Shown here in pieces: positions 1 through 36,766 of a stretch of DNA of 38,679 nt (position 1 is its first letter; each line of letters begins with the position of its first letter). The stretch comes from a virus (Duplodnaviria; Caudoviricetes), in the IMG/VR virus record IMGVR_UViG_3300020045_005470, positions 1-38,679 of that record; one strand, given 5' to 3'. The notes under the pieces are model-generated. The model had not been told where the DNA came from and ran no database searches. It saw nothing but the letters and a program-made list of their open reading frames with translations. The position numbers and the translations under genes are program-made.

Positions 1-1330
1 TCGCAGGATTAGGACAAGATTACACAATACCAACGGGAGCAATTGCATTAAAAGGATGGATAAATGACGGAATTCAACATTTAGAACAAACAGGCTTTGA
101 AAGCGATTTAAACACATTTACACAAACAGGTGCAATAGTCACATTTAAGAAAACAATTACAACAAATCAACGAATAATTATAGACTACTACTTATGAAAA
201 ACATACTTTTTTTACTATTTTCAATAGCAACGTTTGGGCAAGTCTCAACAGGAAATGAAACCCCGTTCGACTATGGAATACAAAATACAGCCGCTCAATT
301 AGTCGGAAATTCTGATTATGTAGTTACACAAGGAAACGATGGTACTTATGGTAAATATTTGTTTAACTTAAATAATATTGACAAAAAACAATATTTATCA
401 ACTGGTTTGGTTAAAAATGGGACGGTTTCCATAAATGCAGACCCGACAAAATACAATATTAGTGCAGGAATTGGGGTTATAACAAATTATGACAATCCAG
501 AAATACCAACGTGTACGGTCGTTAATTTTCCTGCTGTTATTGGAAAGACACCGACTTATTTGACTACTGGACTTATAACGTATGTAGCTATAAATTCAAT
601 CGGTGTAGTAGTTGAACAAGCTACACAATTTACAACAAGCCAAAGACGTGATTTGATTATATTGGGTGCGGTGATACACAGTAACCTAACAACAATAAAC
701 GTAGTCAATAATATTTCAGCACCTACCAATGCAGACACAAATCAATTACACGACCTTATGACTTATATAGGCGCGTTAAATTTGACTGGAAATAAATACA
801 CGGCAAACGGTGCTAATTTAAGTTTGGACAAAAGCGCGGGTTCGATATTTAAACCGGGTGTAAACTTTGCAACTGATTGGAAGAAACCACACGAATTAGA
901 ACAGTCTTTGCAAACATTATTGACGTTTAGATACAGGCTTTCTAACGGAACGGAATACGCAGATGCTACCGTTTTAAACCCTGCTGTTTATGAATCAGGA
1001 GGAACTTTAATATCCGTACCATCGAATAAATTTACCATTCAAACGGTTACAATGTTTCAAACAGGTTTGACACGAATACAGCCGGGACAAAACATTTACA
1101 ATTCACTTGCAGAAGCTGAAAGTGCTATTTTAACGCGTTCATTTGTTGTTGAAACTAATATAGCTGCAAACGGAATAACACGCGCTTATGTGATATTAAG
1201 GAATTCTGCAACATCATTACAAAATACAAGTGATGCAAAAATAATTGAGACTACTAAATTTGGAGGCGTTGCAAGTGGTGGGGTTTCTTTAAGTGATGCG
1301 GCTATTATCGCAGCTTTGGGGTATACGCCA
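1..1330 (+). repeat. Diverged direct repeat, copy 1 (copy 2 at 34561..35890)
   Basis: Colinear at a constant offset of 34560 nt with no indel seen; many synonymous differences; similarity ends after the codons for ALGYTP. Confidence 0.95.
3..197 (+). CDS. 5'-truncated paralog of the 34257..34757 baseplate/fibre-associated protein
   Basis: Manual translation AGLGQDYTIPTGAIALKGWINDGIQHLEQTGFESDLNTF...QRIIIDYYL* aligns without gaps to the C-terminus of 34257..34757; ATGA overlap with ORF 194. Confidence 0.85.
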   Translation, partial: AGLGQDYTIPTGAIALKGWINDGIQHLEQTGFESDLNTFTQTGAIVTFKKTITTNQRIIIDYYL

Positions 1331-3568
1331 GCAAATTTAACAGACGTTAATACAACTAATTCCAACGGAAATACTATCTGGGTAGCTTCAAATGACGCAA
1401 CAACAGAACAAAAAAAGAACGCTTTATATGTTTGTGACGGGACAGCAGATGAGGTTCAGATAAATCAAGCAATACAGGCTATTTCAGCAAGCAGAGGAGG
1501 AACAGTTCGCTTAACGCAGGGTAGGTTTTCATTGTCAACGCCTATTATAATTGATAGAGCCTTAGCGTTAGTTGGCTCTGGTCGTGGAATAAAATTGTCA
1601 CTCGATAATCCTGCTACGGCAACAGACACAAGGGGTACGGCAATTTATCAAACTACTAATACGGATGTGATTAAAATAGACACCCCTAATAAGTTACAAG
1701 GGTTTGAAATAAAAGATTTACTTTTAGTTGGATACGGCAGACAAAACACACCAACAGGACACGGTATTCATATAGCAGGAGGTTCTGATGTTTCTGTAAT
1801 TAGAAATGTTTCGATTTCTGATTGTTATGCAGGTATATTTTACAATCACGATGTAACAGCTCAAATGCTAGACACGCCTTGGGTTGACCAATGTACCATA
1901 CAAAGAAACCACATTGGAATGCTTATTATTGGGGGTCATTTAATGCGAATAACTAATAATATTTTTTGGGAAAATTATGGAATAGGTTCTTATGGCGGTT
2001 ATGATTTCAATTGCGGAGGAATAGCCATTCAGGGACTTGGTAATAATTTAATTTCAAACAATCATTTTGGAGAAAATAATTTCATCGAGGATGCAAATGC
2101 TTCTAAAAACAGCTCCCATTTATCTTTAATTTATGCAAATGATTTAGTATCAAATAATTTTTTTGGTGGCATTCAAGGGAACGGAATAAAAATGACAGGC
2201 TATGTGTCTTACTCTAAGGTGTCAAACAATTATTTTACAAACTTCGGCAAAGGAACAGGGCTAACTAACGCTCAAAGGTCGGGTATTTATATTGAGTTTT
2301 CACAAAGTAATGTTATTGAAAATAACTATATGCTTTCAGCTACCGGAAGTTATGGTATTTATGAAGATTATACCAGTTTTAAAAATTCTTTTGTAAACAA
2401 TGTATTTCAAGACTTGATAAACAACACGGCAAACAGGATATTTTCAGAAGGTACTGAAAATTATCAAAACGGAACAATTGTAAGACCTGATTTGTTGCCT
2501 GAAAAATACGTTCCTGTGAGTGGCGATATTGATATAAACGACAACAAAACATTTATAGCAGAAACTTATTTTAATGAAAATATAGGAGTGGGTGCTGGCA
2601 CTGGAATTATATCCACAGGCATATCAGATATGACAGGAAATATACAAGGGCAATCCATAATACTTAGGCAAGATAATTTATTAGACGGCACATTGATAAG
2701 ACCTGTGCCATCTGGAAGTGCTGGCGATTATGATTTTCATACTTTTAAAAATTCTATTTTAGACGGTAATTTATTTTTACAGAGATTACTTGGTAGTGTA
2801 GGTATTGGAAATGGAAGCAATGCAAATTCTACAGGTAAAAAATTAGATGTATGGGGGAATGCCGCAATCGGCGGAGGCGCAAGATATGACGTTAATGCAA
2901 CTTTAGAGGTAAGTGCGTCCGGGAATAATTCGGTTGTTTATTCAAGGCCAGCGTCTTCAAATCAAAACGGATTCTTTTTCAACACCGCCGGGAACTTTGA
3001 TTGGTTTGTTGGTAATTTTGGATACGAAACAAATATGTTGTTTTATGACGTTTCCAATGGCAAGACTAGGTTAAAAATAACGCCAGGATCGGCTGAGGCA
3101 TCTTTAGAAATTGACGGAACTACGGGTAATTTTAAAATAACTTCTACACCTCCAACCAGTTCAGGAACATACGACATTTTAACAAGGAATACGAGTACTG
3201 GAGTTGTTGAGAAAATAGCGTCAGCGTCAGGAGCCTATACACCCATCTTGACAAACACTACTAATATATCATCAAGCACATTAAATGCTGCATATTATAC
3301 TCGAATTGGGAATTTAATAACAGTAACTATTGCAGTTCAGACTACTTTGACAGCAGCAGCAGAAACTGTTTTAACTTTTTCTTTGCCTATATCAGGAGCA
3401 ACCACAGTAAATGGCATTGGACAAGGTAACTTAACATCAGGAGGTGGTTCTATTAATGGTTATGGGATAGTTGATATTACAAATTCAACTACAGGACAAT
3501 TAAGGATCGGAAAGCCAGATGGTAGCGGTTCAGGAGTTACAAATATAATTTTTACTTATTCACTTTAA
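194..3568 (+). CDS. Tail fibre/tailspike-like adhesin with pectin-lyase-like parallel beta-helix (putative depolymerase)
   Basis: 1124 aa; CDGTADEVQINQAI...GGTVRL motif typical of the start of tailspike beta-helices; repeated I(S/T)NNxF rungs; ALGYTP linker; lies between structural and lysis genes; signal-peptide-like N-terminus. Confidence 0.75.
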   Translation: MKNILFLLFSIATFGQVSTGNETPFDYGIQNTAAQLVGNSDYVVTQGNDGTYGKYLFNLNNIDKKQYLSTGLVKNGTVSINADPTKYNISAGIGVITNYDNPEIPTCTVVNFPAVIGKTPTYLTTGLITYVAINSIGVVVEQATQFTTSQRRDLIILGAVIHSNLTTINVVNNISAPTNADTNQLHDLMTYIGALNLTGNKYTANGANLSLDKSAGSIFKPGVNFATDWKKPHELEQSLQTLLTFRYRLSNGTEYADATVLNPAVYESGGTLISVPSNKFTIQTVTMFQTGLTRIQPGQNIYNSLAEAESAILTRSFVVETNIAANGITRAYVILRNSATSLQNTSDAKIIETTKFGGVASGGVSLSDAAIIAALGYTPANLTDVNTTNSNGNTIWVASNDATTEQKKNALYVCDGTADEVQINQAIQAISASRGGTVRLTQGRFSLSTPIIIDRALALVGSGRGIKLSLDNPATATDTRGTAIYQTTNTDVIKIDTPNKLQGFEIKDLLLVGYGRQNTPTGHGIHIAGGSDVSVIRNVSISDCYAGIFYNHDVTAQMLDTPWVDQCTIQRNHIGMLIIGGHLMRITNNIFWENYGIGSYGGYDFNCGGIAIQGLGNNLISNNHFGENNFIEDANASKNSSHLSLIYANDLVSNNFFGGIQGNGIKMTGYVSYSKVSNNYFTNFGKGTGLTNAQRSGIYIEFSQSNVIENNYMLSATGSYGIYEDYTSFKNSFVNNVFQDLINNTANRIFSEGTENYQNGTIVRPDLLPEKYVPVSGDIDINDNKTFIAETYFNENIGVGAGTGIISTGISDMTGNIQGQSIILRQDNLLDGTLIRPVPSGSAGDYDFHTFKNSILDGNLFLQRLLGSVGIGNGSNANSTGKKLDVWGNAAIGGGARYDVNATLEVSASGNNSVVYSRPASSNQNGFFFNTAGNFDWFVGNFGYETNMLFYDVSNGKTRLKITPGSAEASLEIDGTTGNFKITSTPPTSSGTYDILTRNTSTGVVEKIASASGAYTPILTNTTNISSSTLNAAYYTRIGNLITVTIAVQTTLTAAAETVLTFSLPISGATTVNGIGQGNLTSGGGSINGYGIVDITNSTTGQLRIGKPDGSGSGVTNIIFTYSL

Positions 3569-4726: not shown

Positions 4727-4790
4727 AAAATAAGTTGTATATTTGAGGTTCAAAATATATCCATATCGATTATATTAAAAATCTAGCCTC

Positions 4791-4819
4791 AAAACCATAA
4801 CCCCCGTTATGGTTTTTTT
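4791..4819 (+). terminator. Intrinsic terminator
   Basis: aaaaccataac-cccc-gttatggtttt, 11-bp stem followed by T tract. Confidence 0.8.
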
Positions 4820-11080: not shown

Positions 11081-11186
11081 TATATTTGCTTTATAGTTGC
11101 CGTCTCACATTACGAAACAAACGGAATTATAACTAATCCGATAATGAACATAGAAGTGAGACGCTATGGGATTTATCGGATTTTTT
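11081..11186 (+). promoter_or_regulatory. Promoter plus structured leader/attenuator A
   Basis: TAtaTTTG 11081-11088; cgtctcac 11101-11108 complementary to gtgagacg 11156-11163 in the loop of hairpin aatccgataa/ttatcggatt (11135-11182) followed by T tract. Confidence 0.75.
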
Positions 11187-11198
11187 AATTTATATTAT

Positions 11199-11570
11199 AT
11201 GGATAGAATTTATCATCGTTATGAAAAATGGGAATGTTTTAAAAATGGATTTTTTAGAAATGTTTCTGGACAAGAAAAAATACCTTTATCTGAAAAGGTT
11301 ATAGAGTTATTTAATGATTCTGAAAAAACAAAGGAATTTATGTTTAAGGTTATAAGCGAATGGAAATATTCGTGTGAACACAATTTAAGCAATTTATCAT
11401 TAAATCGAGTTGCTTGGCTTGGACAGTCAGCGTGCTGTATTTATGCTAAAATTCCATATTCAATCACAATGGAAAATTGGCGAAATGTTCCAAAAGATAA
11501 ACAAGATATTGCCTGCGATATTGCAGAAAAAATAATTAAAGAGTATGAATTATGCCTAAAATCTATTTAG
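11199..11570 (+). CDS. Hypothetical protein heading the IbrAB-like operon
   Basis: Start moved to MDRIYHRYEKWE (ATG 11166 lies inside the leader hairpin); overlaps the next gene. Confidence 0.75.
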   Translation: MDRIYHRYEKWECFKNGFFRNVSGQEKIPLSEKVIELFNDSEKTKEFMFKVISEWKYSCEHNLSNLSLNRVAWLGQSACCIYAKIPYSITMENWRNVPKDKQDIACDIAEKIIKEYELCLKSI

Positions 11571-12766
11571 AACAAAACGTTTACGATGCAGCGGTTGAAA
11601 GAGTAAAATTTACTTTTGACAACTTTGAAAAAATATATCTTTCGTTTTCGGCCGGAAAAGATAGTACCGTAATGCTTCACATAGTAATGGATGAGGCAGT
11701 TAAAAGAAATGTAAAAATAGGACTAATGATAGTTGACTTAGAAGGACAGTATAAATTAACTATTGATCACATGAAAGCTTGTATTGAAATGTACAAAGAT
11801 AATATTGATTTATATTGGGTATGCTTACCTATTCACTTAAGAAATGCCGTTTCTGTATTTAAGCCATTTTGGAAGTGCTGGGATTCAGAAGTAAAACAGG
11901 ACTGGATTAGAGAGCTGCCTAAACAATCCATTTCAGACCCTAAATTTTTTCCATTTTTTCGTGACGGTATGGAATTCGAGGAATTTGTTCCAGAGTTTGG
12001 TGAATGGTATTCTCAGGGCAAAACTTGTGCGTGCTTGGTTGGAATTAGAGCAGACGAAAGTCTTAATCGCTATAGAACCATTGCAAGTGATAAAAAAATA
12101 AAATTTCAAAATAAGCAGTACACTACAAAAGTTACTGACAATATTTTTAATGTTTACCCAATTTACGACTGGAAAACAGAGGATATATGGACTTATCACG
12201 GTAAAAACAAACACAAAAGGCACAATGGATTATATGATATGATGCAAAAAGCTGGCCTATCAATTCATTTGCAACGCATTTGCCAACCATATGGAGACGA
12301 TCAAAGAAGAGGTCTGTATCTATTTCATTTAATTGAGCCAGAAACTTGGGCAAAAGTAGTGGCAAGAGTTGAGGGCGCAAATAGTGGTGCATTATACGTT
12401 CAAGATACCGGAAACATAAACGGTTACGGAAAGATAACAAAGCCTATGCATCATACTTGGAAGTCGTTTTCTGAATTAATATTAAATACTTTGCCGGAAG
12501 TTACATCTGAACATTATAAAAATAAAGTTTTCACTTTTATTAAATGGTGGGAAGAAAGAGGTTATAAAGACGGCATTCCCGATGAAGCACCATCTATTTT
12601 AGAGAGCGAAAGACTCGCGCCATCTTGGAGACGTATATGTAAGTCATTATTAAGGAATGACTATTGGTGCAAAGGACTTGGATTTACCCAACACAAAACA
12701 GATGCTTATAACAAGTATTTAAAACTAAAGAAAGAACAAAGAGAATTAAACAATTTTAAATTATAA
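11552..12766 (+). CDS. ibrA: PAPS-reductase-like PP-loop protein with DUF3440 (IbrA/YbdN-like)
   Basis: SFSAGKDS PP-loop, GIRADES, YPIYDW, RICQPYG, PSWRRICK motifs; adjacent ParB-like gene. Confidence 0.85.
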   Translation: MPKIYLEQNVYDAAVERVKFTFDNFEKIYLSFSAGKDSTVMLHIVMDEAVKRNVKIGLMIVDLEGQYKLTIDHMKACIEMYKDNIDLYWVCLPIHLRNAVSVFKPFWKCWDSEVKQDWIRELPKQSISDPKFFPFFRDGMEFEEFVPEFGEWYSQGKTCACLVGIRADESLNRYRTIASDKKIKFQNKQYTTKVTDNIFNVYPIYDWKTEDIWTYHGKNKHKRHNGLYDMMQKAGLSIHLQRICQPYGDDQRRGLYLFHLIEPETWAKVVARVEGANSGALYVQDTGNINGYGKITKPMHHTWKSFSELILNTLPEVTSEHYKNKVFTFIKWWEERGYKDGIPDEAPSILESERLAPSWRRICKSLLRNDYWCKGLGFTQHKTDAYNKYLKLKKEQRELNNFKL

Positions 12767-12771
12767 TAATT

Positions 12772-13419
12772 ATGAAAAATCAAATTATATCACTTATTCA
12801 AGAGCTGCAAAAATTAAATGTAGATGAAAAAGTACAAGCTATGAATGAAATAAAAATAGCAATGCACGAAATAAGCCCTTTTAATTCTGAGCCTGTAGAT
12901 TGTGTTTTATGGGTAAAAAATGAAACTATACACGCTAACGACTATAACCCAAATAGCGTTGCGCCTCCAGAAATGGAATTGCTTAGGCTTTCAATAAGTT
13001 CAGATGGATATACACAGCCAATTGTTTCTATGTTGGAAGACGATATGCAAACGAGGGAGGTTATAGATGGGTTTCACAGAAATAGAGTTGGAAAAGAATG
13101 TGAGGAAATTCAAAAAAGAGTTCACGGATACTTGCCAGTAGTTACGATTAATGAAGACAGGACTAAAATAAATGACCGAGTAGCCTCTACTATTAGACAT
13201 AACAGAGCTAGAGGAAAGCATAAGATTGACGCCATGAGCGATATTGTTATTGACTTGAAAAAACGTAATTGGAGCGACGCAAAAATATCTAAAAATCTTG
13301 GAATGGATCAGGACGAGGTTTTGAGGCTTTGTCAAATTGGAGGTTTGGCCGAATTGTTTTCAGACAAAGAATTTTCTAAAAGCTGGGAAGCTGAAAATTA
13401 CCAAGATGATGAAATATAG
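12772..13419 (+). CDS. ibrB: ParB/Srx N-terminal domain protein (IbrB/YbdM-like)
   Basis: NDYNPNSVAPPEM, GYTQPIV, VIDGFHR, STIRHNRARGKH, C-terminal HTH. Confidence 0.85.
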   Translation: MKNQIISLIQELQKLNVDEKVQAMNEIKIAMHEISPFNSEPVDCVLWVKNETIHANDYNPNSVAPPEMELLRLSISSDGYTQPIVSMLEDDMQTREVIDGFHRNRVGKECEEIQKRVHGYLPVVTINEDRTKINDRVASTIRHNRARGKHKIDAMSDIVIDLKKRNWSDAKISKNLGMDQDEVLRLCQIGGLAELFSDKEFSKSWEAENYQDDEI

Positions 13420-14143
13420 CAATGACAAAAGAGTGAGTTTTGATAGTAAGACTCACTCTTACTTTTTAGGTAAAAAAAGACTTGAATCGGTAACGACTTT
13501 ATTAAGTACGTTTAAAAACAAATTTGATTCTGAATACTGGAGCAAAGTAATAGCCAAAAGAGAGAACAAAACACAGGAAGAAATACTCGAACAATGGAAG
13601 GAAAAAGCTAATAAATCCTGTGAAATAGGAACGGCAATACATAAGATATTTGAAGATTATACGTTAGGGAATTATTCGTTATTACACAATGAAATTTCAA
13701 TTGATTTTTTTGACATAAAGCCGGAATATTTTACAGAATTTCACGCAAAAGCAATTGTAACAACTAATTTTATAAAAGACTTTTTTCTAACTAAAAGAAT
13801 TATTCCTTTACATTCCGAATACATTTGCTATAACGAATCGATTGCCGGGCAAATAGATATGATATGTACAGACTCAAAAGGAAATTATTACATTTTAGAC
13901 TTTAAAACAAATGAGAAAATAGATTTTGAGTCTTATAAGAATACGAAAATGCTGGGTATTTTAAACTTTATTGACGATAGTAGTTATTGGCATTATTGTT
14001 TACAGCTATCTATTTACAAAGAGTTATGTAAAGAATTTGATATAAGAAAATTATTTTTAGTTCATATAACAAAAGAAAAATATCATTTTATTGAGTGTGA
14101 AAACATTTTAGAAAAAATAAATTTAAGTGATATAATTCAATAA
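13406..14143 (+). CDS. PD-(D/E)XK exonuclease-like protein
   Basis: SVTTLL, GTAIH, IAGQIDMI...ILDFKT, HYCLQLSIY motifs; start moved to MMKYS. Confidence 0.85.
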   Translation: MMKYSNDKRVSFDSKTHSYFLGKKRLESVTTLLSTFKNKFDSEYWSKVIAKRENKTQEEILEQWKEKANKSCEIGTAIHKIFEDYTLGNYSLLHNEISIDFFDIKPEYFTEFHAKAIVTTNFIKDFFLTKRIIPLHSEYICYNESIAGQIDMICTDSKGNYYILDFKTNEKIDFESYKNTKMLGILNFIDDSSYWHYCLQLSIYKELCKEFDIRKLFLVHITKEKYHFIECENILEKINLSDIIQ

Positions 14144-14150
14144 AATTTAT

Positions 14151-14252
14151 TATATTTGTGTTTGTATTATTGGTGGAGCATTAATACACAGAAAAACATT
14201 ATTGACTATCCTATCAGGGCGGAACTCCACTTCCAAACTGATAGGATTTTTT
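14151..14252 (+). promoter_or_regulatory. Promoter plus structured leader/attenuator B
   Basis: TAtaTTTG 14151-14158; hairpin tgtatta/taataca with loop gtggag (14173-14178); hairpin atcctatcag/ctgataggat (14208-14247) with loop ctccac (14225-14230) followed by T tract. Confidence 0.8.
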
Positions 14253-14257
14253 ATATT

Positions 14258-15802
14258 ATGAAAAAAACACTTTACCCACATCAAAAAGATTTCCTTGATG
14301 AAATACTTTTAAAAATTAAAGAAGTAGATTCTGTTTGTTGCCAATTAAGTACAGGCGGCGGAAAGACCGTAGTGTTTACAGAGCTAGTTAAAATTTTAGA
14401 TTCAAAGACATTAATTTTAGTTGATAGTATTGATCTTGTAAATCAAACTTTTGATACATTTAAAAAACAAGGTGTTGACGTTGGTTGTATTTTGGCTGGA
14501 AATACAAAAATACCTGAAAATAAAGTAATTGTTGCAATGATAAAAAGTCTTTGGAATAGACGTAAAAAAATGCCATTATTTGAAGTTTGCATAATCGACG
14601 AATGCCATTTATGGGAGGTAAATAAGCTATTTGAATTTTTACCAAACTGCAAACGAATTGGATTTACAGCAACCCCAGTAAGATTAAAACGAACCAAAAT
14701 AGACGATGAGTATTCGGAAGTTGAAACGATGTCGCAATGGTATGATAATATTGTATGCGGCAAACCAATTAGCTGGTTAATGGAGCACGGATATTTAATA
14801 CCAGAAAAAAACGAATACATTGACTTTGACTCATCAGGATTAAAAACAGATGCAAGCGGTGAATTTACCGCTTCTTCACTAAAAGAAGTATTCCAAAGTG
14901 AAACTTATAAAAATGCACTTCGTAAAACTTTTGATAAATTATGCGACGGTAAAAAAACTTTACTTTTCACTTCGTCAACCGAAACTAACGCAATTTATGC
15001 AGAACTTTTTAGCGATAAAAACGTAAAAACATACGATAGCGTAAATAATAATCCAAACGAACGCGATGATATTGTAGAATGGTTTAGGACTACACCGGAT
15101 GCCGTTTTAATTAATACCGGATGTTTCACAAAAGGTTTTGACGTTTGCGATGTCGAGGTAATTTTAATGGCACGCGCAACAAAAAGCCTTTCGTTATGGA
15201 TTCAAATAGCTGGCCGTGGAGCTCGTAAAACCTCAAAAATAGAAAAACCTTATTTTTTATTAATCGATGGGGGTAACAATAATGAAGAACACGGAATATT
15301 TAGTTTTGATAGGGATTGGAGAAAGATATTTTTTGATAAACAACGAAAATCATATTTAAAAGACATTTACGAATGTGAAGAATGCGGCTTTAGTTTTGAG
15401 AAAAAAGACAAAATATGTCCTAATTGCGGGTGTGAAATTCCTGAAAAAGAAAAACCGGAAGAAGTTGAACAAAAGGAGTTTGTAATTAAAGGACAAAAAA
15501 ATAAGATTTTACCCCCTACTTTAGATTTAGAATTTCATATTATTAAGGGTCATTCTAAATATGAAACATTAAAGATTTTAAGAATGAAGTGGATTACTTT
15601 TTTATGTAAATTAGACCTCCCATTTAATGACTTCATTTGGCACGAAAATAAAGGAAATTTCCAAATGAGATTTAATAAATTTTTAAGACCGTTATTTTTT
15701 AAAATATTAGCTTCAATTTTAAAAGATGGAAAACATACAAAATACAATACTGTTTGCGAAAAAATACTAACCGATACTAAAATAAAAAAATATGAAATTT
15801 AG
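14258..15802 (+). CDS. Superfamily 2 DExH helicase with C-terminal zinc ribbon
   Basis: LYPHQ, TGGGKT, DECH, TATP, KGFD, QIAGRGAR, CEEC...CPNC; start moved to MKKTLY. Confidence 0.92.
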   Translation: MKKTLYPHQKDFLDEILLKIKEVDSVCCQLSTGGGKTVVFTELVKILDSKTLILVDSIDLVNQTFDTFKKQGVDVGCILAGNTKIPENKVIVAMIKSLWNRRKKMPLFEVCIIDECHLWEVNKLFEFLPNCKRIGFTATPVRLKRTKIDDEYSEVETMSQWYDNIVCGKPISWLMEHGYLIPEKNEYIDFDSSGLKTDASGEFTASSLKEVFQSETYKNALRKTFDKLCDGKKTLLFTSSTETNAIYAELFSDKNVKTYDSVNNNPNERDDIVEWFRTTPDAVLINTGCFTKGFDVCDVEVILMARATKSLSLWIQIAGRGARKTSKIEKPYFLLIDGGNNNEEHGIFSFDRDWRKIFFDKQRKSYLKDIYECEECGFSFEKKDKICPNCGCEIPEKEKPEEVEQKEFVIKGQKNKILPPTLDLEFHIIKGHSKYETLKILRMKWITFLCKLDLPFNDFIWHENKGNFQMRFNKFLRPLFFKILASILKDGKHTKYNTVCEKILTDTKIKKYEI

Positions 15803-24815: not shown

Positions 24816-27055
24816 TGAATTTAAAAACAGAAGTATATATTTCAATAGATAACGAAAACTTTAGTAAAATTGATTTAGCGAAAAACGAATCAATCAATAT
24901 AAAGTATGTACTTAAAGACACGACTGATTTATCGAAAATATTTTCGCCTTTTAGTTTATCATTCACTTTTCCCGGAACATTAAACAATCAAAGAATTTTT
25001 GGTTTTGTTGGAAATACAAAAGTATTCAAGACAAAAACAGATAATGTTTTCGCGTGCAAGATTTACAGCAACGGATTATTAAGTCAAACAGGTAAATTAA
25101 AACTTACCGAGGTTAGGGAAGAAAATGGCTTTATAAAATCATTTACAGCTAATTTCACAACTACAATGATTTCGTTGCAGACTCGTATGGGAAGTGATTT
25201 AATTAATGATTTGCCGACCACACCAGTTAAAATAAAATGGTTACCTAACGATGTGTTTAGCTCATTAAGTTCTATTAAAGTTCATTCATCAGGAGCGAAA
25301 TATTACGTGCCATTAATTTCAAGAAATAGAATTTTTCAAAGAAGATTAAATATCGAAACAGATTATTTGGACAATGTTTTTTATGTTGCTGGTGCAGATC
25401 CAGCAAGTACAAAAACAATTAAATCATCTGAATTAAGACCAGCAATCCAAGGGCGTACAATTATTGATTTAATCAAAGCTAAATACAATCTCATTATTGA
25501 TATGCCGTTAGAGTCAACACAAGAGTATAACGATTGGTACGTTTACTGTAATGCAGAAAGTACAGCAACAAACAATTTAGTAAAAGTTGATTTAATTAAT
25601 CCGTTTGTTTTATCAGTAGTTGACCAAAAAAACGATATTGGCGGAGACGGTTTGCCTAGCTCCCCAAGATACACAACTACAATGGATACGGTTAACGACA
25701 ACATCACTATATTACAAAACAATTCATTCTATCCAACAAGGTGGGGAGGCGATTTTCAATTAACTGTTAGGCTAAATGGAATTATTATTTTAGATGACGC
25801 TACAACAGGCGATTTCCTAATAACAGTTAAAAGAAGCGATGGGCGAATTTTATACAGCGAAACAGTTTCTAAAATAGGCACGATGTTAGAAGCAGAAATA
25901 AACATAACCGATGAAATGTTTATTGGAACTTCTTTAACTTTTTCAATTGAAATTTCACCCAAACAAACATCAACTTGGAATAAGATGGATTTTTTCACCA
26001 TTCAAGAATATTACCACACTTATAAATTTTTGACAGTAAAATCAGTAGAAAGAAAAAAATGGCAATATGTAAGTTTTGGAAATGACAATAGCGCGCAATC
26101 AGGAGCGGGAATAATTGATTTATTTAAAGCTTTGCCGCAAACAAAATGCGTAGATTTCTTAAATTCATTTTTCAAAACGTTTAATATTTCAATATTCGAC
26201 GCTTCGCCAAATGACGATAAACTTTTTTGGTTAACGCCTCAGGATTTACTAGTGGAAAATAAAGCATTTTCTAAAAAAGTAGTAGATTATACGCCTTATA
26301 TTGTGTCAAAAAACATAACAAAAAGCTTACCGGCTGATTTCAATTACTATAATTTCAAACATTTAACGTCAAAATACAAATCAAATATTGATTTTAAATC
26401 GACAAACGGTATAGAATTTGGACAAACTACATATCCAACTATTAAACCTACTGAAAATTTAAACGAGTATAAGGTAGAAACTGGATTTTCAATCTTAGAA
26501 GCTTTGCCAATATCTGGAATGACAGACGAATTTACAAGTTACGGGTTTAATTCAGACGCACCGGAAACATTAGAAGGGGGCGAAAAAAGATATAAGCCAA
26601 ATGTAGATGAATTAACTATTTTCTTTGCGTGTGTATTACGTAATTTATCAGGTGATAAGGTTTTAGGATTTCAAAAAACTAGCCTAAGCGGGGCATTAAT
26701 TACAGCACCGTTAAATTCATATATAAAAACAAGTCCGGTACATCCTAACGGTTTTAGCTTTGGATTTAGTTTGATTCAAGAAAGCGTACAACGTAGTTTA
26801 TATTATGATTTTTATAAAACACAAACAGAAAGATTATTAAATCCAAACACTTTAAACCAATCTTTTGAATTAGAATTACCAGCAAGCGAATTAGTTTTAA
26901 ACTATGCAACAACCGAAAGTGGAATGTCATTAGTTCCAGACGGTTTTAGATTACAAAATGAAATAATATTGCAGGAAAATAGATTTTCACTAATTGACGC
27001 TACTATTGATATTACAACCGGAAAAGCAAAAATAAACGCATTAAATTTTACATAA
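24815..27055 (+). CDS. Putative baseplate hub/tail tip protein
   Basis: 746 aa; FSLSFTFPGT..N..IF N-terminal motif; adjacent to tape measure. Confidence 0.6.
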   Translation: MNLKTEVYISIDNENFSKIDLAKNESINIKYVLKDTTDLSKIFSPFSLSFTFPGTLNNQRIFGFVGNTKVFKTKTDNVFACKIYSNGLLSQTGKLKLTEVREENGFIKSFTANFTTTMISLQTRMGSDLINDLPTTPVKIKWLPNDVFSSLSSIKVHSSGAKYYVPLISRNRIFQRRLNIETDYLDNVFYVAGADPASTKTIKSSELRPAIQGRTIIDLIKAKYNLIIDMPLESTQEYNDWYVYCNAESTATNNLVKVDLINPFVLSVVDQKNDIGGDGLPSSPRYTTTMDTVNDNITILQNNSFYPTRWGGDFQLTVRLNGIIILDDATTGDFLITVKRSDGRILYSETVSKIGTMLEAEINITDEMFIGTSLTFSIEISPKQTSTWNKMDFFTIQEYYHTYKFLTVKSVERKKWQYVSFGNDNSAQSGAGIIDLFKALPQTKCVDFLNSFFKTFNISIFDASPNDDKLFWLTPQDLLVENKAFSKKVVDYTPYIVSKNITKSLPADFNYYNFKHLTSKYKSNIDFKSTNGIEFGQTTYPTIKPTENLNEYKVETGFSILEALPISGMTDEFTSYGFNSDAPETLEGGEKRYKPNVDELTIFFACVLRNLSGDKVLGFQKTSLSGALITAPLNSYIKTSPVHPNGFSFGFSLIQESVQRSLYYDFYKTQTERLLNPNTLNQSFELELPASELVLNYATTESGMSLVPDGFRLQNEIILQENRFSLIDATIDITTGKAKINALNFT

Positions 27056-29043: not shown

Positions 29044-29156
29044 TATATTTGCTATGAATAATTGTGTGAAGTTGCACAAAACCAAAATTTAGCCATTTTG
29101 AAAAAACGTATTAAAAGACCTAAAAGCCTACTTGATTAATTTCGAGTAGGCTTTTT
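29044..29156 (+). promoter_or_regulatory. Promoter plus structured leader C with terminator hairpin, ahead of the head operon
   Basis: TAtaTTTG 29044-29051; hairpin ttgtgt-gaagtt-gcacaa 29062-29079; 14-bp hairpin 29122-29155 with T tract. Confidence 0.65.
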
Positions 29157-29174
29157 GTCGTTACATTCAAAAAT

Positions 29175-30197
29175 ATGAAAGTATATAAATTAACAAGACC
29201 AGAAGATTATAAAGGATTATTTGCTGAAAGTTTGGTGACAGATCCAGCTATCCAAAGTAATTTAATGGCGTTTAGCGAAGAAAAAGAGTTCACATTTCAG
29301 GATGAGGAGCAAAGAATTATCTATGCGCCCGCTTTGATACCTAACAAAATGATTTTTCGCAAAGATATTCAGGGAGAACCAGCACACGTATATTTTGAAA
29401 AAGAAACTATCAAAGAATTACTAATCGAGCAATCAAGACAAGGACAAAAAACACTTATAAACGTAAACCATTCAGCGGACGTAGTTGAAGGGTGTTTTAT
29501 TTTCGAATCTTGGATAGTTGATGATAAACAAATCGATAAATCTTTTAAAATGGGTTTCGATGTTCCAGAAGGTACGTTAATGCGAGGTTACAAAATCGAT
29601 AACGATGCAGTTTGGAATGATATTAAATTAGGAAATTTAAAAGGTCTTTCAATTGAAGGTCAATTATTTCCAGAAGAAGTAAAATTAAATAAACACGATA
29701 TGAACAAAAAAGGATTAATTACTTTGGCAATTGAAGCTTTTAAAGCAGCTTTTAAATTTGCCGATATGACTGACTACGGAAACGGTTTCTTTGGTTCGTC
29801 TTTAGAATTGGGATCTATTATTTCCGATAAAGACGGCAACCCAATGGCAAACGCTGAATTTGAGTACGAAAAAAATAAGTACAAAACCGATGATATGGGA
29901 GCGATTTCAGAAATCGAACCTATCGAAGATGCACCAGCAGAGCCGGCAGATGATGGTAAAGATGCTAAAATCTTAGAATTAGAAACTAAAATTGCTGATT
30001 TAGAAGCGAAACTTACCGAGGCAACAGCCACAAAAATGGCTAACGAGGCAGTGATCCCAGAATTAGAAGCTAGACTTGTAAAACTTGAATCTGAGTTGAT
30101 TGAAGCAAGAAAAATTAAACCTATCATTTTAGCTGAGGAAGTTCCTTATGAAAAAATGACCAACGCACAAAAAGTAAAATTTAACCGAAACAAATAA
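29175..30197 (+). CDS. Prohead protease/scaffold (XkdF-like serine protease)
   Basis: RIIYAPALIPNK.I.R, NVNH, FESWIV, LKGLSIEG; acidic coiled-coil C-terminus; upstream of capsid gene. Confidence 0.8.
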   Translation: MKVYKLTRPEDYKGLFAESLVTDPAIQSNLMAFSEEKEFTFQDEEQRIIYAPALIPNKMIFRKDIQGEPAHVYFEKETIKELLIEQSRQGQKTLINVNHSADVVEGCFIFESWIVDDKQIDKSFKMGFDVPEGTLMRGYKIDNDAVWNDIKLGNLKGLSIEGQLFPEEVKLNKHDMNKKGLITLAIEAFKAAFKFADMTDYGNGFFGSSLELGSIISDKDGNPMANAEFEYEKNKYKTDDMGAISEIEPIEDAPAEPADDGKDAKILELETKIADLEAKLTEATATKMANEAVIPELEARLVKLESELIEARKIKPIILAEEVPYEKMTNAQKVKFNRNK

Positions 30198-34266: not shown

Positions 34267-34757
34267 TACAAAACATAAATGTTTCGACTCCTAATGATGG
34301 TTTAGGCGATACGCTTCGGGATTCACAAGTTAAGGCAAATGAGAACTTTGCCGAACTTAATTTAAAAAAAGTTGAAGTACAGGCTGGATTTGGATTGACA
34401 CAGGAAAATTTTACAACTGCTGAAAAGGCTAAACTTGCCGACATTGCAGCCGATGCCGAAAAGAATGTACAAGCAAACTGGAATCAATTAGATGATACCC
34501 AAGACGACTTTATTATTGGAAAACCAACAAGTATTTTACAAACTATATCATCATTACGATTTATAGGAGCAGGGCAAACTTATACTATTTCAGTTGGGGG
34601 AATTGCATTTAAAGGATGGATAAATGATGGAGTGCAACATTTAGAGCAAGCAGGTTTTGAAAGCGATTTAAATACGTTTATTCAAATAGGAAATAATGTT
34701 ACATTTAAAAAACCAATCACAGCAGGACAACGAATAATTTTAGACTTTTACTTATGA
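34257..34757 (+). CDS. Baseplate/fibre-attachment protein with T4 gp9/gp10-like N-terminal motif
   Basis: INVSTPNDGLGDTLRDSQVKANENFAEL. Confidence 0.65.
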   Translation: MALIQNINVSTPNDGLGDTLRDSQVKANENFAELNLKKVEVQAGFGLTQENFTTAEKAKLADIAADAEKNVQANWNQLDDTQDDFIIGKPTSILQTISSLRFIGAGQTYTISVGGIAFKGWINDGVQHLEQAGFESDLNTFIQIGNNVTFKKPITAGQRIILDFYL

Positions 34758-35890
34758 AAAATATACTTTTTTTACTTTTTTCAATCGCAACATTTGGACA
34801 AGTTTCTACAGGTCAAGAAACCCCGTTCGACTATGGAATACAAAATACAGCCGCACAATTAGTTGGTAATTCTGACTATGTAGTTACGCAGGGTAGCGAT
34901 GGTACTTATGGAAAGTATTTATTTAACTTAAACAATATTGACAAAAAACAATATTTAGCTACTGGTTTAATTAAAAACGGTACTATTTCAATAAATGCAG
35001 ACCCGACAAAATATAATATTAGCGCAGGAATAGGGGTTATAACAAATTACGACAATCCAGAAATACCAACGTGTACGGTCGTTAATTTTCCTGCTGTTAC
35101 TGGAAAAACACCAACCTATTTAAATATAGGACTTATAACATACGTTGCAATAAATTCAAGCGGTGTAGTCGTTGAGCAAGCTACACAATTTACAACAAGT
35201 CAAAGACGTGATTTAATTATATTGGGGGCGGTTATTCATTCTAATTTAACAAGCATAAACGTAGTAAATAATATTAGTGCTCCAACAAACGCAGATACAA
35301 ACCAACTACACGACCTTATGACTTATATAGGGGCGTTAAATTTAACAGGAAATAAATATACTGCAAATGGCGCGAATCTCTCTCTCGATAAAAGCGCGGG
35401 AAGTATATTTAAAGCAGGCGTTAATTTTGCAACTGATTGGAAGAAGCCACACGAATTAGAACAATCTTTACAAACATTATTGACGTTTAGATATAGACTT
35501 TCTAACGGCACGGAATATGCAGACGCTACGGTTTTAAATCCTGCTATATATGAATCAGGGGGAATTTTAATAGCCGTACCATCGAACAAATTTACCATTC
35601 AAACGGTTACAATGTTTCAAACAGGTTTGACACGAATACAGCCGGGACAAAACATTTATAATTCACTTGCAGAAGCTGAAAGTGCTATTTTAACGCGTTC
35701 TTTCGTTGTTGAAACGAATATAGCTGCAAACGGAATAACACGCGCTTATGTGATATTACGTAATTCAGCAACATCATTACAGAATATAAATGATGCAAAA
35801 ATAATTGAGACTACTAAATTTGGAGGTGTTGCAAGTGGTGGGGTTTCTTTAAGTGATTCGGCTATTATTGCGGCTTTGGGATATACGCCG
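34561..35890 (+). repeat. Diverged direct repeat, copy 2 (copy 1 at 1..1330)
   Basis: Gapless alignment at offset 34560. Confidence 0.95.
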
Positions 35891-36766
35891 GAAAATGCAG
35901 CGAATAAAAGTAATGCTTATGTAGTTGATGGCACAGGAACTAAATATTACACGTCAGATTATATTAATACAAATTTACCCACTAATTACACTACAATTGT
36001 TTATGTGAATTCAACATCGCCAAATACGGCGACTATTTTTGATGATGTTAATCCCCCTATTGCGAATGATGATGCTTTGAAATTAAGTACAGCAAATTTA
36101 TATATTGGAACAGACGCAAGTACTTGGGTGTATAATGGCAGTACTTATGTGACTAAAACAGTTCCTACTTCATCAAACTTTTATATAGAAAGCACTACGA
36201 CTGATGCTGGAAGCAACAAAACATCCAACATACAAAGGTCTGGAGGTGTTGTTTTTGGAAATTACATATACTCTTACGGAGAAATAGTTTCTAAAAAAGC
36301 AGCATCCGATACGGTACTTTCTGGAAGTAATTTTAGATTATTTAACAATGCAGGAACAGATGGAAATATTTTTCAATTGAACGCCTCAAACGGTATAGAT
36401 ATATGGAATTACACAAGTGGAGTTTGGAACAAAAGATTTACTTTCTCAAGTAGCGGCATATTTTCGGCTACTGCAATAAACGCAGGTATTGTGGTTCGTA
36501 AAATTTCAACAAACACAACGCTTTCAGATAGCGATAATGGGAAAGTAATTCTACTTACTGCATCATGCACAGTTACTTTACCAAATGGGTTAATGAACGG
36601 TTTTAACTGTTCTTTTTCCACGTTAGCAGGCGTTACAATGACTTATGCGTTAGGTGGGTCTGTTACATTATTAAACAATATAGGAACTACAATGGCTGAA
36701 AAACTAAGCCATACAATTGTAAATACGGGGGTTTCAAATGAATATTTAACAGCTGGGTCGTTATGA
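34754..36766 (+). CDS. Second tail fibre/adhesin, paralog of 194..3568 with a different C-terminus
   Basis: First 379 aa differ from ORF 194 at 17 positions by my count; unrelated after ALGYTP. Confidence 0.75.
   Translation: MKNILFLLFSIATFGQVSTGQETPFDYGIQNTAAQLVGNSDYVVTQGSDGTYGKYLFNLNNIDKKQYLATGLIKNGTISINADPTKYNISAGIGVITNYDNPEIPTCTVVNFPAVTGKTPTYLNIGLITYVAINSSGVVVEQATQFTTSQRRDLIILGAVIHSNLTSINVVNNISAPTNADTNQLHDLMTYIGALNLTGNKYTANGANLSLDKSAGSIFKAGVNFATDWKKPHELEQSLQTLLTFRYRLSNGTEYADATVLNPAIYESGGILIAVPSNKFTIQTVTMFQTGLTRIQPGQNIYNSLAEAESAILTRSFVVETNIAANGITRAYVILRNSATSLQNINDAKIIETTKFGGVASGGVSLSDSAIIAALGYTPENAANKSNAYVVDGTGTKYYTSDYINTNLPTNYTTIVYVNSTSPNTATIFDDVNPPIANDDALKLSTANLYIGTDASTWVYNGSTYVTKTVPTSSNFYIESTTTDAGSNKTSNIQRSGGVVFGNYIYSYGEIVSKKAASDTVLSGSNFRLFNNAGTDGNIFQLNASNGIDIWNYTSGVWNKRFTFSSSGIFSATAINAGIVVRKISTNTTLSDSDNGKVILLTASCTVTLPNGLMNGFNCSFSTLAGVTMTYALGGSVTLLNNIGTTMAEKLSHTIVNTGVSNEYLTAGSL

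What the first reader, a model, noticed from the sequence alone, without database searches (positions are those of the whole stretch)
14151..14260. Kissing-loop attenuator-like leader RNA ahead of the helicase/primase operon
Seen: a TAtaTTTG promoter box, then hairpin 1 (tgtatta 14163-14169 / taataca 14182-14188) with loop GTGGAG, an A-rich linker, then hairpin 2 (atcctatcag/ctgataggat plus inner ggaa/ttcc) with loop CTCCAC, the exact complement of loop 1. A U tract follows and the helicase ATG comes 5 nt later. Established: long-range loop pairing and attenuation control rep genes of IncI/IncB and pT181/pIP501 plasmids. Inference: a cis-regulatory RNA (or ~90-nt sRNA) whose loop-loop pseudoknot gates termination or translation of replication genes. 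I cannot assign it to a named RNA family.
Basis: partly seen in the sequence, partly recalled or inferred. Interest (0 to 1): 0.85.

Follow-up and report, generated by a model that had tools for sequence, protein, structure and literature searches.

The report
Swappable kissing-loop RNA gate on replication
Ahead of its DNA-replication genes this phage carries a ~90-base two-hairpin leader whose loops are exact complements, a pairing that related phages keep with more than twenty different letter codes, and it likely acts as an uncatalogued RNA switch that decides whether transcription stops or runs on.

Summary
A Bacteroidota promoter box (14151-58) is followed by a 5' hairpin, an A-rich linker, a terminator-like hairpin and the helicase-primase genes. 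The two loops are exact complements.

The pairing is not chance. 25 of 27 close helicase relatives carry the design, with 11 different codes. In a code-blind scan, 67 of 93 distinct matches had a perfect 7/7 partner. The kissing helix was 99.6% paired, with compensatory changes.

The leader is a portable cassette. It heads helicase, initiator, recombinase and HNH/GIY-YIG genes, often recurs in a genome (twice here) with different codes, and is scattered at random over the helicase tree. Cultured lytic Flavobacterium phages (mumin9-1, morran9-1) carry it.

Best reading (0.55): loop-loop kissing blocks completion of the terminator, as in the guanidine-IV riboswitch but without a ligand pocket. 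The plasmid-type antisense RNA was not supported. The input is unproven; code-matched short transcripts acting in trans are the boldest option.

There was no Rfam match and nothing in ten literature searches. No expression data were available. This scan noted the same design earlier on other DNA.

The parts
14151..14158 (+). Bacteroidota sigma-A -7 box (TAnnTTTG); predicted +1 at 14163
   Evidence: sequence; box lies at -12 to -5 in Flavobacterium (PMC9723704 passage); hairpin 1 begins at +1/+2 in 30 of 50 elements
14163..14188 (+). Hairpin 1 (7 bp + mismatch + 2 bp), at the predicted 5' end of the transcript
14173..14178 (+). Loop 1 code GTGGAG
14189..14207 (+). A/U-rich linker, 19 nt, predicted unpaired
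   Evidence: code-to-code spacing 45-53 nt in 65 of 65 rows of the sister subfamily
14208..14247 (+). Hairpin 2, terminator-like: 10-bp lower stem, 3x3 purine-rich internal loop, 4-bp upper stem
   Evidence: stems covary in relatives
14225..14230 (+). Loop 2 code CTCCAC, exact complement of loop 1
14247..14252 (+). U tract; ATG follows 5 nt later
   Evidence: 5 or more T in the 8 nt after the stem in 46 of 50 elements
14258..15802 (+). SF2 DNA helicase (ResIII, Helicase_C; phrog_16), first gene behind the leader
   Evidence: 60% identical to the helicase of Flavobacterium phage mumin9-1
15792..17963 (+). Primase-helicase (BT4734-like N, PriCT-2, VapE-like), overlapping the helicase end
11081..11186 (+). 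Second copy of the design: box 11081-88, code CGTCTCAC 11101-08, terminator-like hairpin 11135-82 with loop code GTGAGACG 11156-63, ATG 11199; hairpin 1 fold less certain
11199..13419 (+). Operon behind the second copy: unknown 123-aa ORF, PAPS-reductase/DUF3440 protein, ParB-like protein

Best explanation
This is a two-hairpin leader with complementary loops in front of the phage's helicase-primase genes, and it likely works as an attenuator in which loop-loop kissing blocks completion of the terminator. Host polymerase would start at 14163 and hairpin 1 would fold at once. About 60 nt later the 4-bp upper stem of hairpin 2 would present loop 2. If the loops kiss before the lower stem zips, hairpin 1, the linker and the 5' arm of hairpin 2 form a closed ring. 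The polymerase-tethered 3' arm could then finish the terminator only by threading that ring or by over-stretching the linker, so transcription would read through. If the kiss is late or loop 1 is occupied, the terminator closes and a ~90-nt RNA is released. The closed stem ends 10 nt before the ATG, so it would probably hinder translation as well. The 6-9-nt code fixes which RNA can pair with which. The input I favour, and the weakest step, is code-matched leader RNA competing for loop 1 in trans as phage DNA and transcripts accumulate. Shown: anatomy, covariation, gene context, cassette swapping. Inferred: transcription, termination, the sign of the switch, the input.
For: (1) Covariation. 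25 of the 27 loci with helicases at least 66% identical carry the full design with 11 codes; one is cut at the contig end and one keeps hairpin 2 only; the 3 distant loci show none. In a scan blind to 6 of 7 code letters, 67 of 93 distinct matches had a perfect 7/7 partner, in 11 codes. On 38 of those rows the kissing helix is 99.6% paired, 4 of its 7 pairs change on both sides, and it holds no G-U; 0 of 500 shuffles reached the whole-structure score. (2) Cis geometry. Spacing is 45-53 nt in 65 of 65 rows. Both loops are mostly 5'-A plus the code (56 of 65 for loop 2). (3) Terminator features. 46 of 50 elements have 5 or more T in the 8 nt after the stem, and the lower stem has G-U pairs on this strand (31 of 520 cells). 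(4) No classical antiterminator helix competes: mean z -0.38, 6 of 50 at or below -2. (5) Precedent. [quoted passage not shown] (6) Toy geometry of my own: span over linker contour has a median of 0.68 if the linker is straight and 0.98 if it must wind. The Gauss linking number goes from about -0.1 (upper stem only) to about -1.2 (full hairpin) at the four linker positions that agree with each other, of eight tried. (7) Of 51 downstream proteins scanned, 28 are DNA-metabolism proteins, 1 is structural and 22 are unknown.
Against: No transcript, 3' end or reporter data exist for this element. A few elements have poor U tracts (4 of 50 with 4 or fewer T), and the T-rich stretch could partly be the A/U-rich translation start region. 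The strict terminator scan does not list this hairpin because its apical part is too long. A straight linker can span the finished structure (0.68), so kiss and terminator can coexist in free RNA; the clash rests on an idealised model. Linker length does not rise with stack height (rho -0.41, distorted by over-extended predicted stems). A cis switch alone has no obvious input and does not explain the fast code turnover. The shuffle control ignores relatedness.
Confidence: 0.55

Rival explanations
1. Trans address code as the main function: the terminated ~90-nt RNA is the regulator. Its loop 2 binds loop 1 of nascent leaders with the same code, from the same or a co-infecting phage, and forces termination. 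This would be copy-number or co-infection control by a same-strand RNA; it extends the best explanation rather than replacing it.
For: Leader codes are scattered at random on the helicase tree: 17 changes against 18.4 for shuffled labels, with 36 of 200 shuffles as low. L109 and L116 share 94% of the 50 nt upstream and have near-identical helicases, yet different leaders; L095 and L096 are a looser case (82% upstream, sister helicases). Within one genome, 0 of 48 non-cognate loop pairs reach 6 bp, against 13.5% across genomes. Code changes are 20 transversion-type against 2 transition-type; the stems give 42 against 24. Precedents: short IsrK acts in trans on its own read-through transcript, and P4 CI RNA terminates replication transcripts (PMC4825925).
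Against: G433 has the same code twice; the pair was merged by my deduplication, so the 0 of 48 omits it. Single codes are widely shared (30 of 67). The transversion count re-counts the same two switches many times. Only 1 of 34 records has a tyrosine integrase and 0 of 34 a resolvase, so prophage immunity is not the setting. The released RNA could kiss in cis and hide its loops. Swapping can also come from recombination at the promoter box or from homing endonucleases.
Confidence: 0.2
2. The switch acts mainly on translation: closed hairpin 2 crowds the ribosome landing zone, the kiss keeps it open, and termination is minor.
For: The stem ends 10 nt before the ATG here and within 23 nt in 41 of 46 elements with an ORF. 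Some U tracts are weak. The IncI repZ pseudoknot activates translation (PMC8383071 passage).
Against: Strong U tracts in 46 of 50 elements. Five elements lie 31-48 nt from the ATG.
Confidence: 0.1
3. Opposite sign, or a structural role: the kiss helps the terminator form, or folds the released RNA into a stable compact particle (possibly a dimer), and a phage or host protein binding the GA-rich internal loop or the kiss causes read-through.
For: The internal loop is a conserved tandem-GA type (GAT/TGA in 36, TGA/GAT in 8 of 65 rows). Positions 2 and 4 of the code are invariant in one subfamily although the pattern left them free. The straight-linker span is feasible.
Against: The focal element's internal loop differs (GGC/AAA). 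Codes without the GT start exist and the G-rich strand can sit in either loop, which is hard to square with one protein site. No antiterminator gene was annotated among the 52 window proteins scanned.
Confidence: 0.12
4. An ordinary promoter-plus-terminator shuffling cassette (PeSL-like), with the loop match as a by-product.
For: It is portable, recurs within genomes and is swapped at gene borders, as T4-type PeSLs are (PMC2839356).
Against: Perfect complementarity across more than 20 codes with double changes cannot be a by-product. Copies within a genome mostly differ in sequence, whereas PeSLs are repeats.
Confidence: 0.03

Closest known systems
Guanidine-IV riboswitch (PMC11611296; 8 passages read)
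   Same: A 5' hairpin loop kisses the loop of the nascent terminator hairpin; the kiss hinders the full terminator stem; linker shortening creates the clash.
   Different: It has a conserved ligand-binding sequence and sits before mepA genes. Here the kissing letters vary over more than 20 codes and swap sides, and the genes are phage replication genes. No Rfam match.
IncI-alpha repZ pseudoknot with Inc RNA; pT181/pIP501 attenuators (PMC8383071 review; passages)
   Same: Long-range loop pairing or attenuation in the leader of replication genes.
   Different: They need an antisense RNA from the other strand; none is indicated here. The IncI partner is a site near the ribosome binding site, not a terminator loop.
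P4 CI RNA (seqA/seqC) and P1 c4 antisense RNA (PMC4825925 passage; Rfam RF01695 listed in PMC2864571 table)
   Same: Same-strand complementary boxes in a phage leader that govern premature termination before replication genes.
   Different: They use a separate processed RNA and several target boxes, in lysogens. Here there are two loops only, usually no third copy of the code, and the phages almost all lack integrases.
IsrK of Gifsy-1 (PMC4825925; abstract and 2 passages)
   Same: A short terminated transcript and a read-through mRNA come from one promoter; the short form acts in trans.
   Different: IsrK activates translation through a target downstream of its terminator; no 5'-loop to terminator-loop code was seen in what I read.
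PeSL cassettes of T4-type phages (PMC2839356; abstract and passages)
   Same: A portable promoter plus terminator unit at gene borders.
   Different: No loop-loop pairing was seen in the passages read; PeSLs are sequence repeats in hyperplastic regions.
HK022 put RNAs (recalled, not read)
   Same: A two-hairpin nascent RNA right after a phage promoter that affects termination.
   Different: As recalled, it binds polymerase, has adjacent stems and holds no terminator or variable code.

Membership tests
Any Rfam 15 family | Match to a covariance model at gathering score | tested here: not met
   0 matches in the window and in 18 relative loci; only weak matches far below cut-off at E-value thresholds
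Guanidine-IV riboswitch | Kissing loop between a 5' hairpin and the terminator loop | tested here: met
   by covariation, not by experiment
Guanidine-IV riboswitch | Conserved ligand-binding loop sequence and family model match | tested here: not met
   codes vary and swap sides; no Rfam hit
Guanidine-IV riboswitch | The kiss promotes read-through | not testable with these tools
   needs termination assays; only toy geometry here
IncI / pT181-type antisense control | Antisense promoter and RNA on the opposite strand over the leader | tested here: not met
   7 minus-strand TAnnTTTG boxes in 10,767 nt of 50 elements against 11.7 expected, 1 strict box; other promoter types were not tested
IncI / pT181-type antisense control | Leader of replication genes | tested here: met
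IncI / pT181-type antisense control | Alternative antiterminator helix | tested here: not met
   mean z -0.38; 6 of 50 at or below -2
P4 CI / P1 c4 immunity RNA | Separate small RNA and further complementary target boxes | tested here: not met
   18 of 29 codes of 7 nt or more occur only at their own two sites; the others occur 3-7 times and the extra sites were not inspected; no C4 hit
P4 CI / P1 c4 immunity RNA | Temperate phage (lysogen immunity) | tested here: not met
   integrase 1 of 34, resolvase 0 of 34; muminphages described as lytic only; plasmid-like carriage is not excluded
Intrinsic terminator | Stable hairpin followed at once by a U tract | tested here: met
   -18.3 kcal/mol and a run of 6 T; not listed by the strict scan
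Intrinsic terminator | RNA 3' end at the U tract | not testable with these tools
   no RNA run was listed
PeSL cassette | Repeated near-identical promoter/stem-loop units within a genome | tested here: not met
   one BLAST match in the own genome; copies mostly differ in code and stems, with G433 an exception

The most novel reading that the evidence does not exclude
These leaders are self-addressed RNA switches. Each terminated ~90-nt transcript carries both halves of a 6-9-nt address and shuts off any leader with the same address, its own or that of a co-infecting phage. Non-integrating phages would thus count their own genomes and interfere with kin through swappable RNA cassettes, with no repressor, ligand or antisense gene. 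Read-through would rest on a topological lock: the kiss closes a ring that the polymerase-bound strand cannot thread.
Probability: 0.22. Interest if true: 0.93.

Novelty: new variant of a known kind. Interest (0 to 1): 0.78.

Why it matters
It is an abundant, uncatalogued RNA family at the head of replication operons in Bacteroidota phages, whose gene control is barely studied. A kissing-loop attenuator without a ligand pocket or antisense partner, but with a natural library of more than 20 codes, would surprise riboswitch and phage specialists. It can be tested now, because cultured phage-host pairs carry it (mumin9-1, morran9-1 on Flavobacterium LMO6/LMO9). It would also give a clean natural test of whether RNA topology can block an intrinsic terminator, and a set of RNA parts with distinct codes for Bacteroidota genetics.

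Tried and rejected
Expression: no RNA holder was listed for 13900-14600; this is no evidence either way.

Host chromosomes: a GTGGAG-family pattern over GTDB gave 1 hit, on a 2.6-kb contig of a Flavobacterium MAG. Model R1 hit 1 of 151 genomes, but only 25 of several thousand candidates per genome were scored. Patterns hit 1 of 401 genomes and 18 of 251, with at least as many reversed-pattern control hits. So it was not found above chance in those searched.

Cellulophaga phages phi12:1 and phi46:1: no element by my detectors.

The in-frame TTG ORF from 14156 was rejected as an N-terminal extension, because box-to-ATG distances in relatives (97, 105, 107, 114-118 nt) do not keep the frame.

The late leader at 29044 was rejected as a third copy: its loops give only a wobble match, and two relatives do not keep it.

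Linker length against stem height gave no support.

A code-blind exception: 3 distinct matches (L309, L310, L346) have promoter, hairpin and terminator but a 4-nt loop and no kiss.

Literature: ten searches listed no paper on this element. The phage-isolation paper has no occurrence of 'promoter'. In the Fremin 2023 candidate catalogue, 6 supplementary files held none of 5 motifs, but files 1, 2 and 4 could not be searched, so it may be listed there unannotated. bioRxiv supplements and subscription papers were not visible.

Full report
Setting. The window is a whole 38,679-base virus record. It has tail, lysis, recombination, replication and packaging genes and no integrase or resolvase. Its helicase is 60% identical to that of the cultured Flavobacterium phages of the mumin group. 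The Flavobacterium-type host is an inference from this and from the promoter form.

Observation. The box lies at -12 to -5 in Flavobacterium (PMC9723704, 7 passages read), which puts +1 at 14163, the first base of hairpin 1. The region folds better than all 200 shuffles.

Covariation, test 1: gene-anchored. One search returned 30 helicase loci. Of the 27 at 66% identity or more, 25 carry box, hairpin 1, linker, hairpin 2 and T run with complementary loops; four of these have a small or endonuclease ORF between leader and helicase. One locus is cut at the contig end, and one (L114) keeps hairpin 2 only. The three distant loci show none (L103 and L113 read by eye). Eleven codes occur, and the G-rich strand may sit in either loop.

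Covariation, test 2: focal family with both loops unspecified. All distinct matches with box and lower stem were complementary, 17 of 17 among 68 and 16 of 16 among 100. A compensatory GTAGAG/CTCTAC variant occurs.

Covariation, test 3: sister subfamily with six of seven code letters unspecified. 67 of 93 distinct matches had a perfect 7/7 partner, in 11 codes (the scan covered 43 of 64 parts). Most of the other 26 look like coding sequence by eye; three are a promoter-hairpin-terminator unit without a kiss. I aligned 38 of the 65 full-length rows (at most 8 per code, two near-duplicates dropped). The kissing helix is 99.6% paired, with 4 of 7 pairs changing on both sides and no G-U; slid controls fall to 35-49% paired. 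Rows were chosen for having the complement, hairpin 1 was fixed by the pattern, and the shuffle ignores kinship, so the 67 of 93 is the fair figure.

Distribution. The GTGGAG version alone precedes many unrelated genes. I fetched 28 records chosen because they hold an element (G424 lacks its last 1.2 kb) and added the window and four cultured phages. A detector that requires 6 bp of complement gave 50 elements in 31 genomes after I dropped 3 doubtful rows; it misses some known copies, such as 11081. I scanned 50 of the 81 downstream proteins plus one from the window: 11 HNH/GIY-YIG endonucleases, 10 initiators or loaders, 5 helicases or primases, 1 Erf, 1 RNase H, 1 structural and 22 unknown. 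Mumin9-1 has two elements and morran9-1 one, at their replication or SSB genes. These phages are described as lytic only (PMC7077304, 12 passages). One of 34 records has a tyrosine integrase. Flavobacterium chromosomes gave no signal above chance, in insensitive searches.

Swapping. On a 25-protein helicase tree the leader code needs 17 changes against 18.4 for shuffled labels. L109 and L116 have the same upstream DNA and near-identical helicases but different leaders; L095 and L096 are a looser case. Copies within a genome mostly have different codes: 0 of 48 non-cognate pairs reach 6 bp against 13.5% across genomes. But G433 has one code twice, which my deduplication merged, and operon slots have their own code lineages, so this is weak. 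Code changes are mostly transversion-type (20 of 22, against 42 of 66 in stems), but the same two switches are counted repeatedly.

Mechanism. Hairpin 2 looks like a terminator (46 of 50 with 5 or more T in 8 nt), and no conserved ordinary antiterminator helix was found. No antisense promoter is enriched, and 18 of 29 longer codes have no third site in their genome. That leaves the kiss as the switch. The guanidine-IV riboswitch shows experimentally that a kiss between a 5' loop and the nascent terminator loop hinders the terminator, and that stem growth strains the linker (PMC11611296, 8 passages). My toy geometry agrees: the linker spans the finished stack at 0.68 of its contour if straight and 0.98 if wound. 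Completing hairpin 2 under an intact kiss changes the linking by about one turn at four of eight linker positions; the other four gave larger, scattered values, probably because my connectors cut the helix. This is an idealised model, not evidence of function. What tips the race is open. Code-matched short transcripts in trans would explain the code turnover, with IsrK and P4 CI as precedents (PMC4825925, abstract and 2 passages). Against this, the released RNA could kiss in cis, and single codes are widely shared.

Comparison and novelty. No Rfam family matched. It fails defining features of guanidine-IV (conserved ligand site), IncI/pT181 (antisense gene; PMC8383071, passages), P4/P1 (separate RNA, lysogeny) and PeSL (repeats; PMC2839356, abstract and passages). 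It works like guanidine-IV and sits like the plasmid leaders. Ten searches listed no description. PMC2864571 was seen as table passages. PMC10690425 was seen as passages and 6 supplementary files, with 3 files unsearched. HK022 put and the SECIS-like look of the internal loop are recalled, not read. Earlier notes of this scan describe the same design on other DNA; they are unchecked and are not counted as support.

Verdict. A real, conserved and apparently uncatalogued RNA element: a new variant of the kissing-loop attenuator kind, interest 0.78. The RNA structure is well supported; the regulatory sign and input are inferred.

Noticed in passing
window 29044-29175 (+): Late-gene leader: promoter box, small hairpin, then a very stable terminator-like hairpin (z -5.2) before the XkdF-like head protease gene; a similar layout occurs in L409 and L392, but the loops are not complementary. 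It looks like a late antitermination gate.
   Followed up: partly
window 4738-4815 (+): Another promoter, hairpin and terminator-like hairpin directly before a 144-aa ORF (phrog_5885), z -4.8, with no loop complement.
   Followed up: no
window 11199-13419 (+): Unknown 123-aa ORF, PAPS-reductase/DUF3440 and ParB-like genes (IbrA/IbrB-like, a label taken from earlier scan notes) sit behind the second kissing-loop leader; the real start appears to be 11199, not 11166.
   Followed up: partly
L114:684-813 versus L115:2075-2181: Near-identical loci; L114 lacks the promoter and hairpin 1 but keeps hairpin 2. A natural deletion or an assembly artefact.
   Followed up: no
L253-L372 (sister subfamily): The internal loop of hairpin 2 is mostly a symmetric UGAU/UGAU-type tandem-GA motif, resembling the SECIS core as I recall it; many of these leaders directly precede free-standing HNH or GIY-YIG endonuclease genes.
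   Followed up: partly
L113:9943-10057 and G433 near 26556: Kissing-loop leaders with other codes outside the replication block; the G433 one heads a homing endonuclease followed by a structural gene.
   Followed up: partly
L309, L310, L346: A related-looking promoter-hairpin-terminator unit with a 4-nt loop and no kiss.
   Followed up: no
window 194-3568 and 34754-36766: Two tail-fibre genes with similar N-terminal regions (same PHROG hits, similar DNA stretches).
   Followed up: no
window 13429-13460: A 14-bp hairpin with a T run near the border of the ParB-like and exonuclease genes, the stronger of two terminator-like hits in the region scanned.
   Followed up: no
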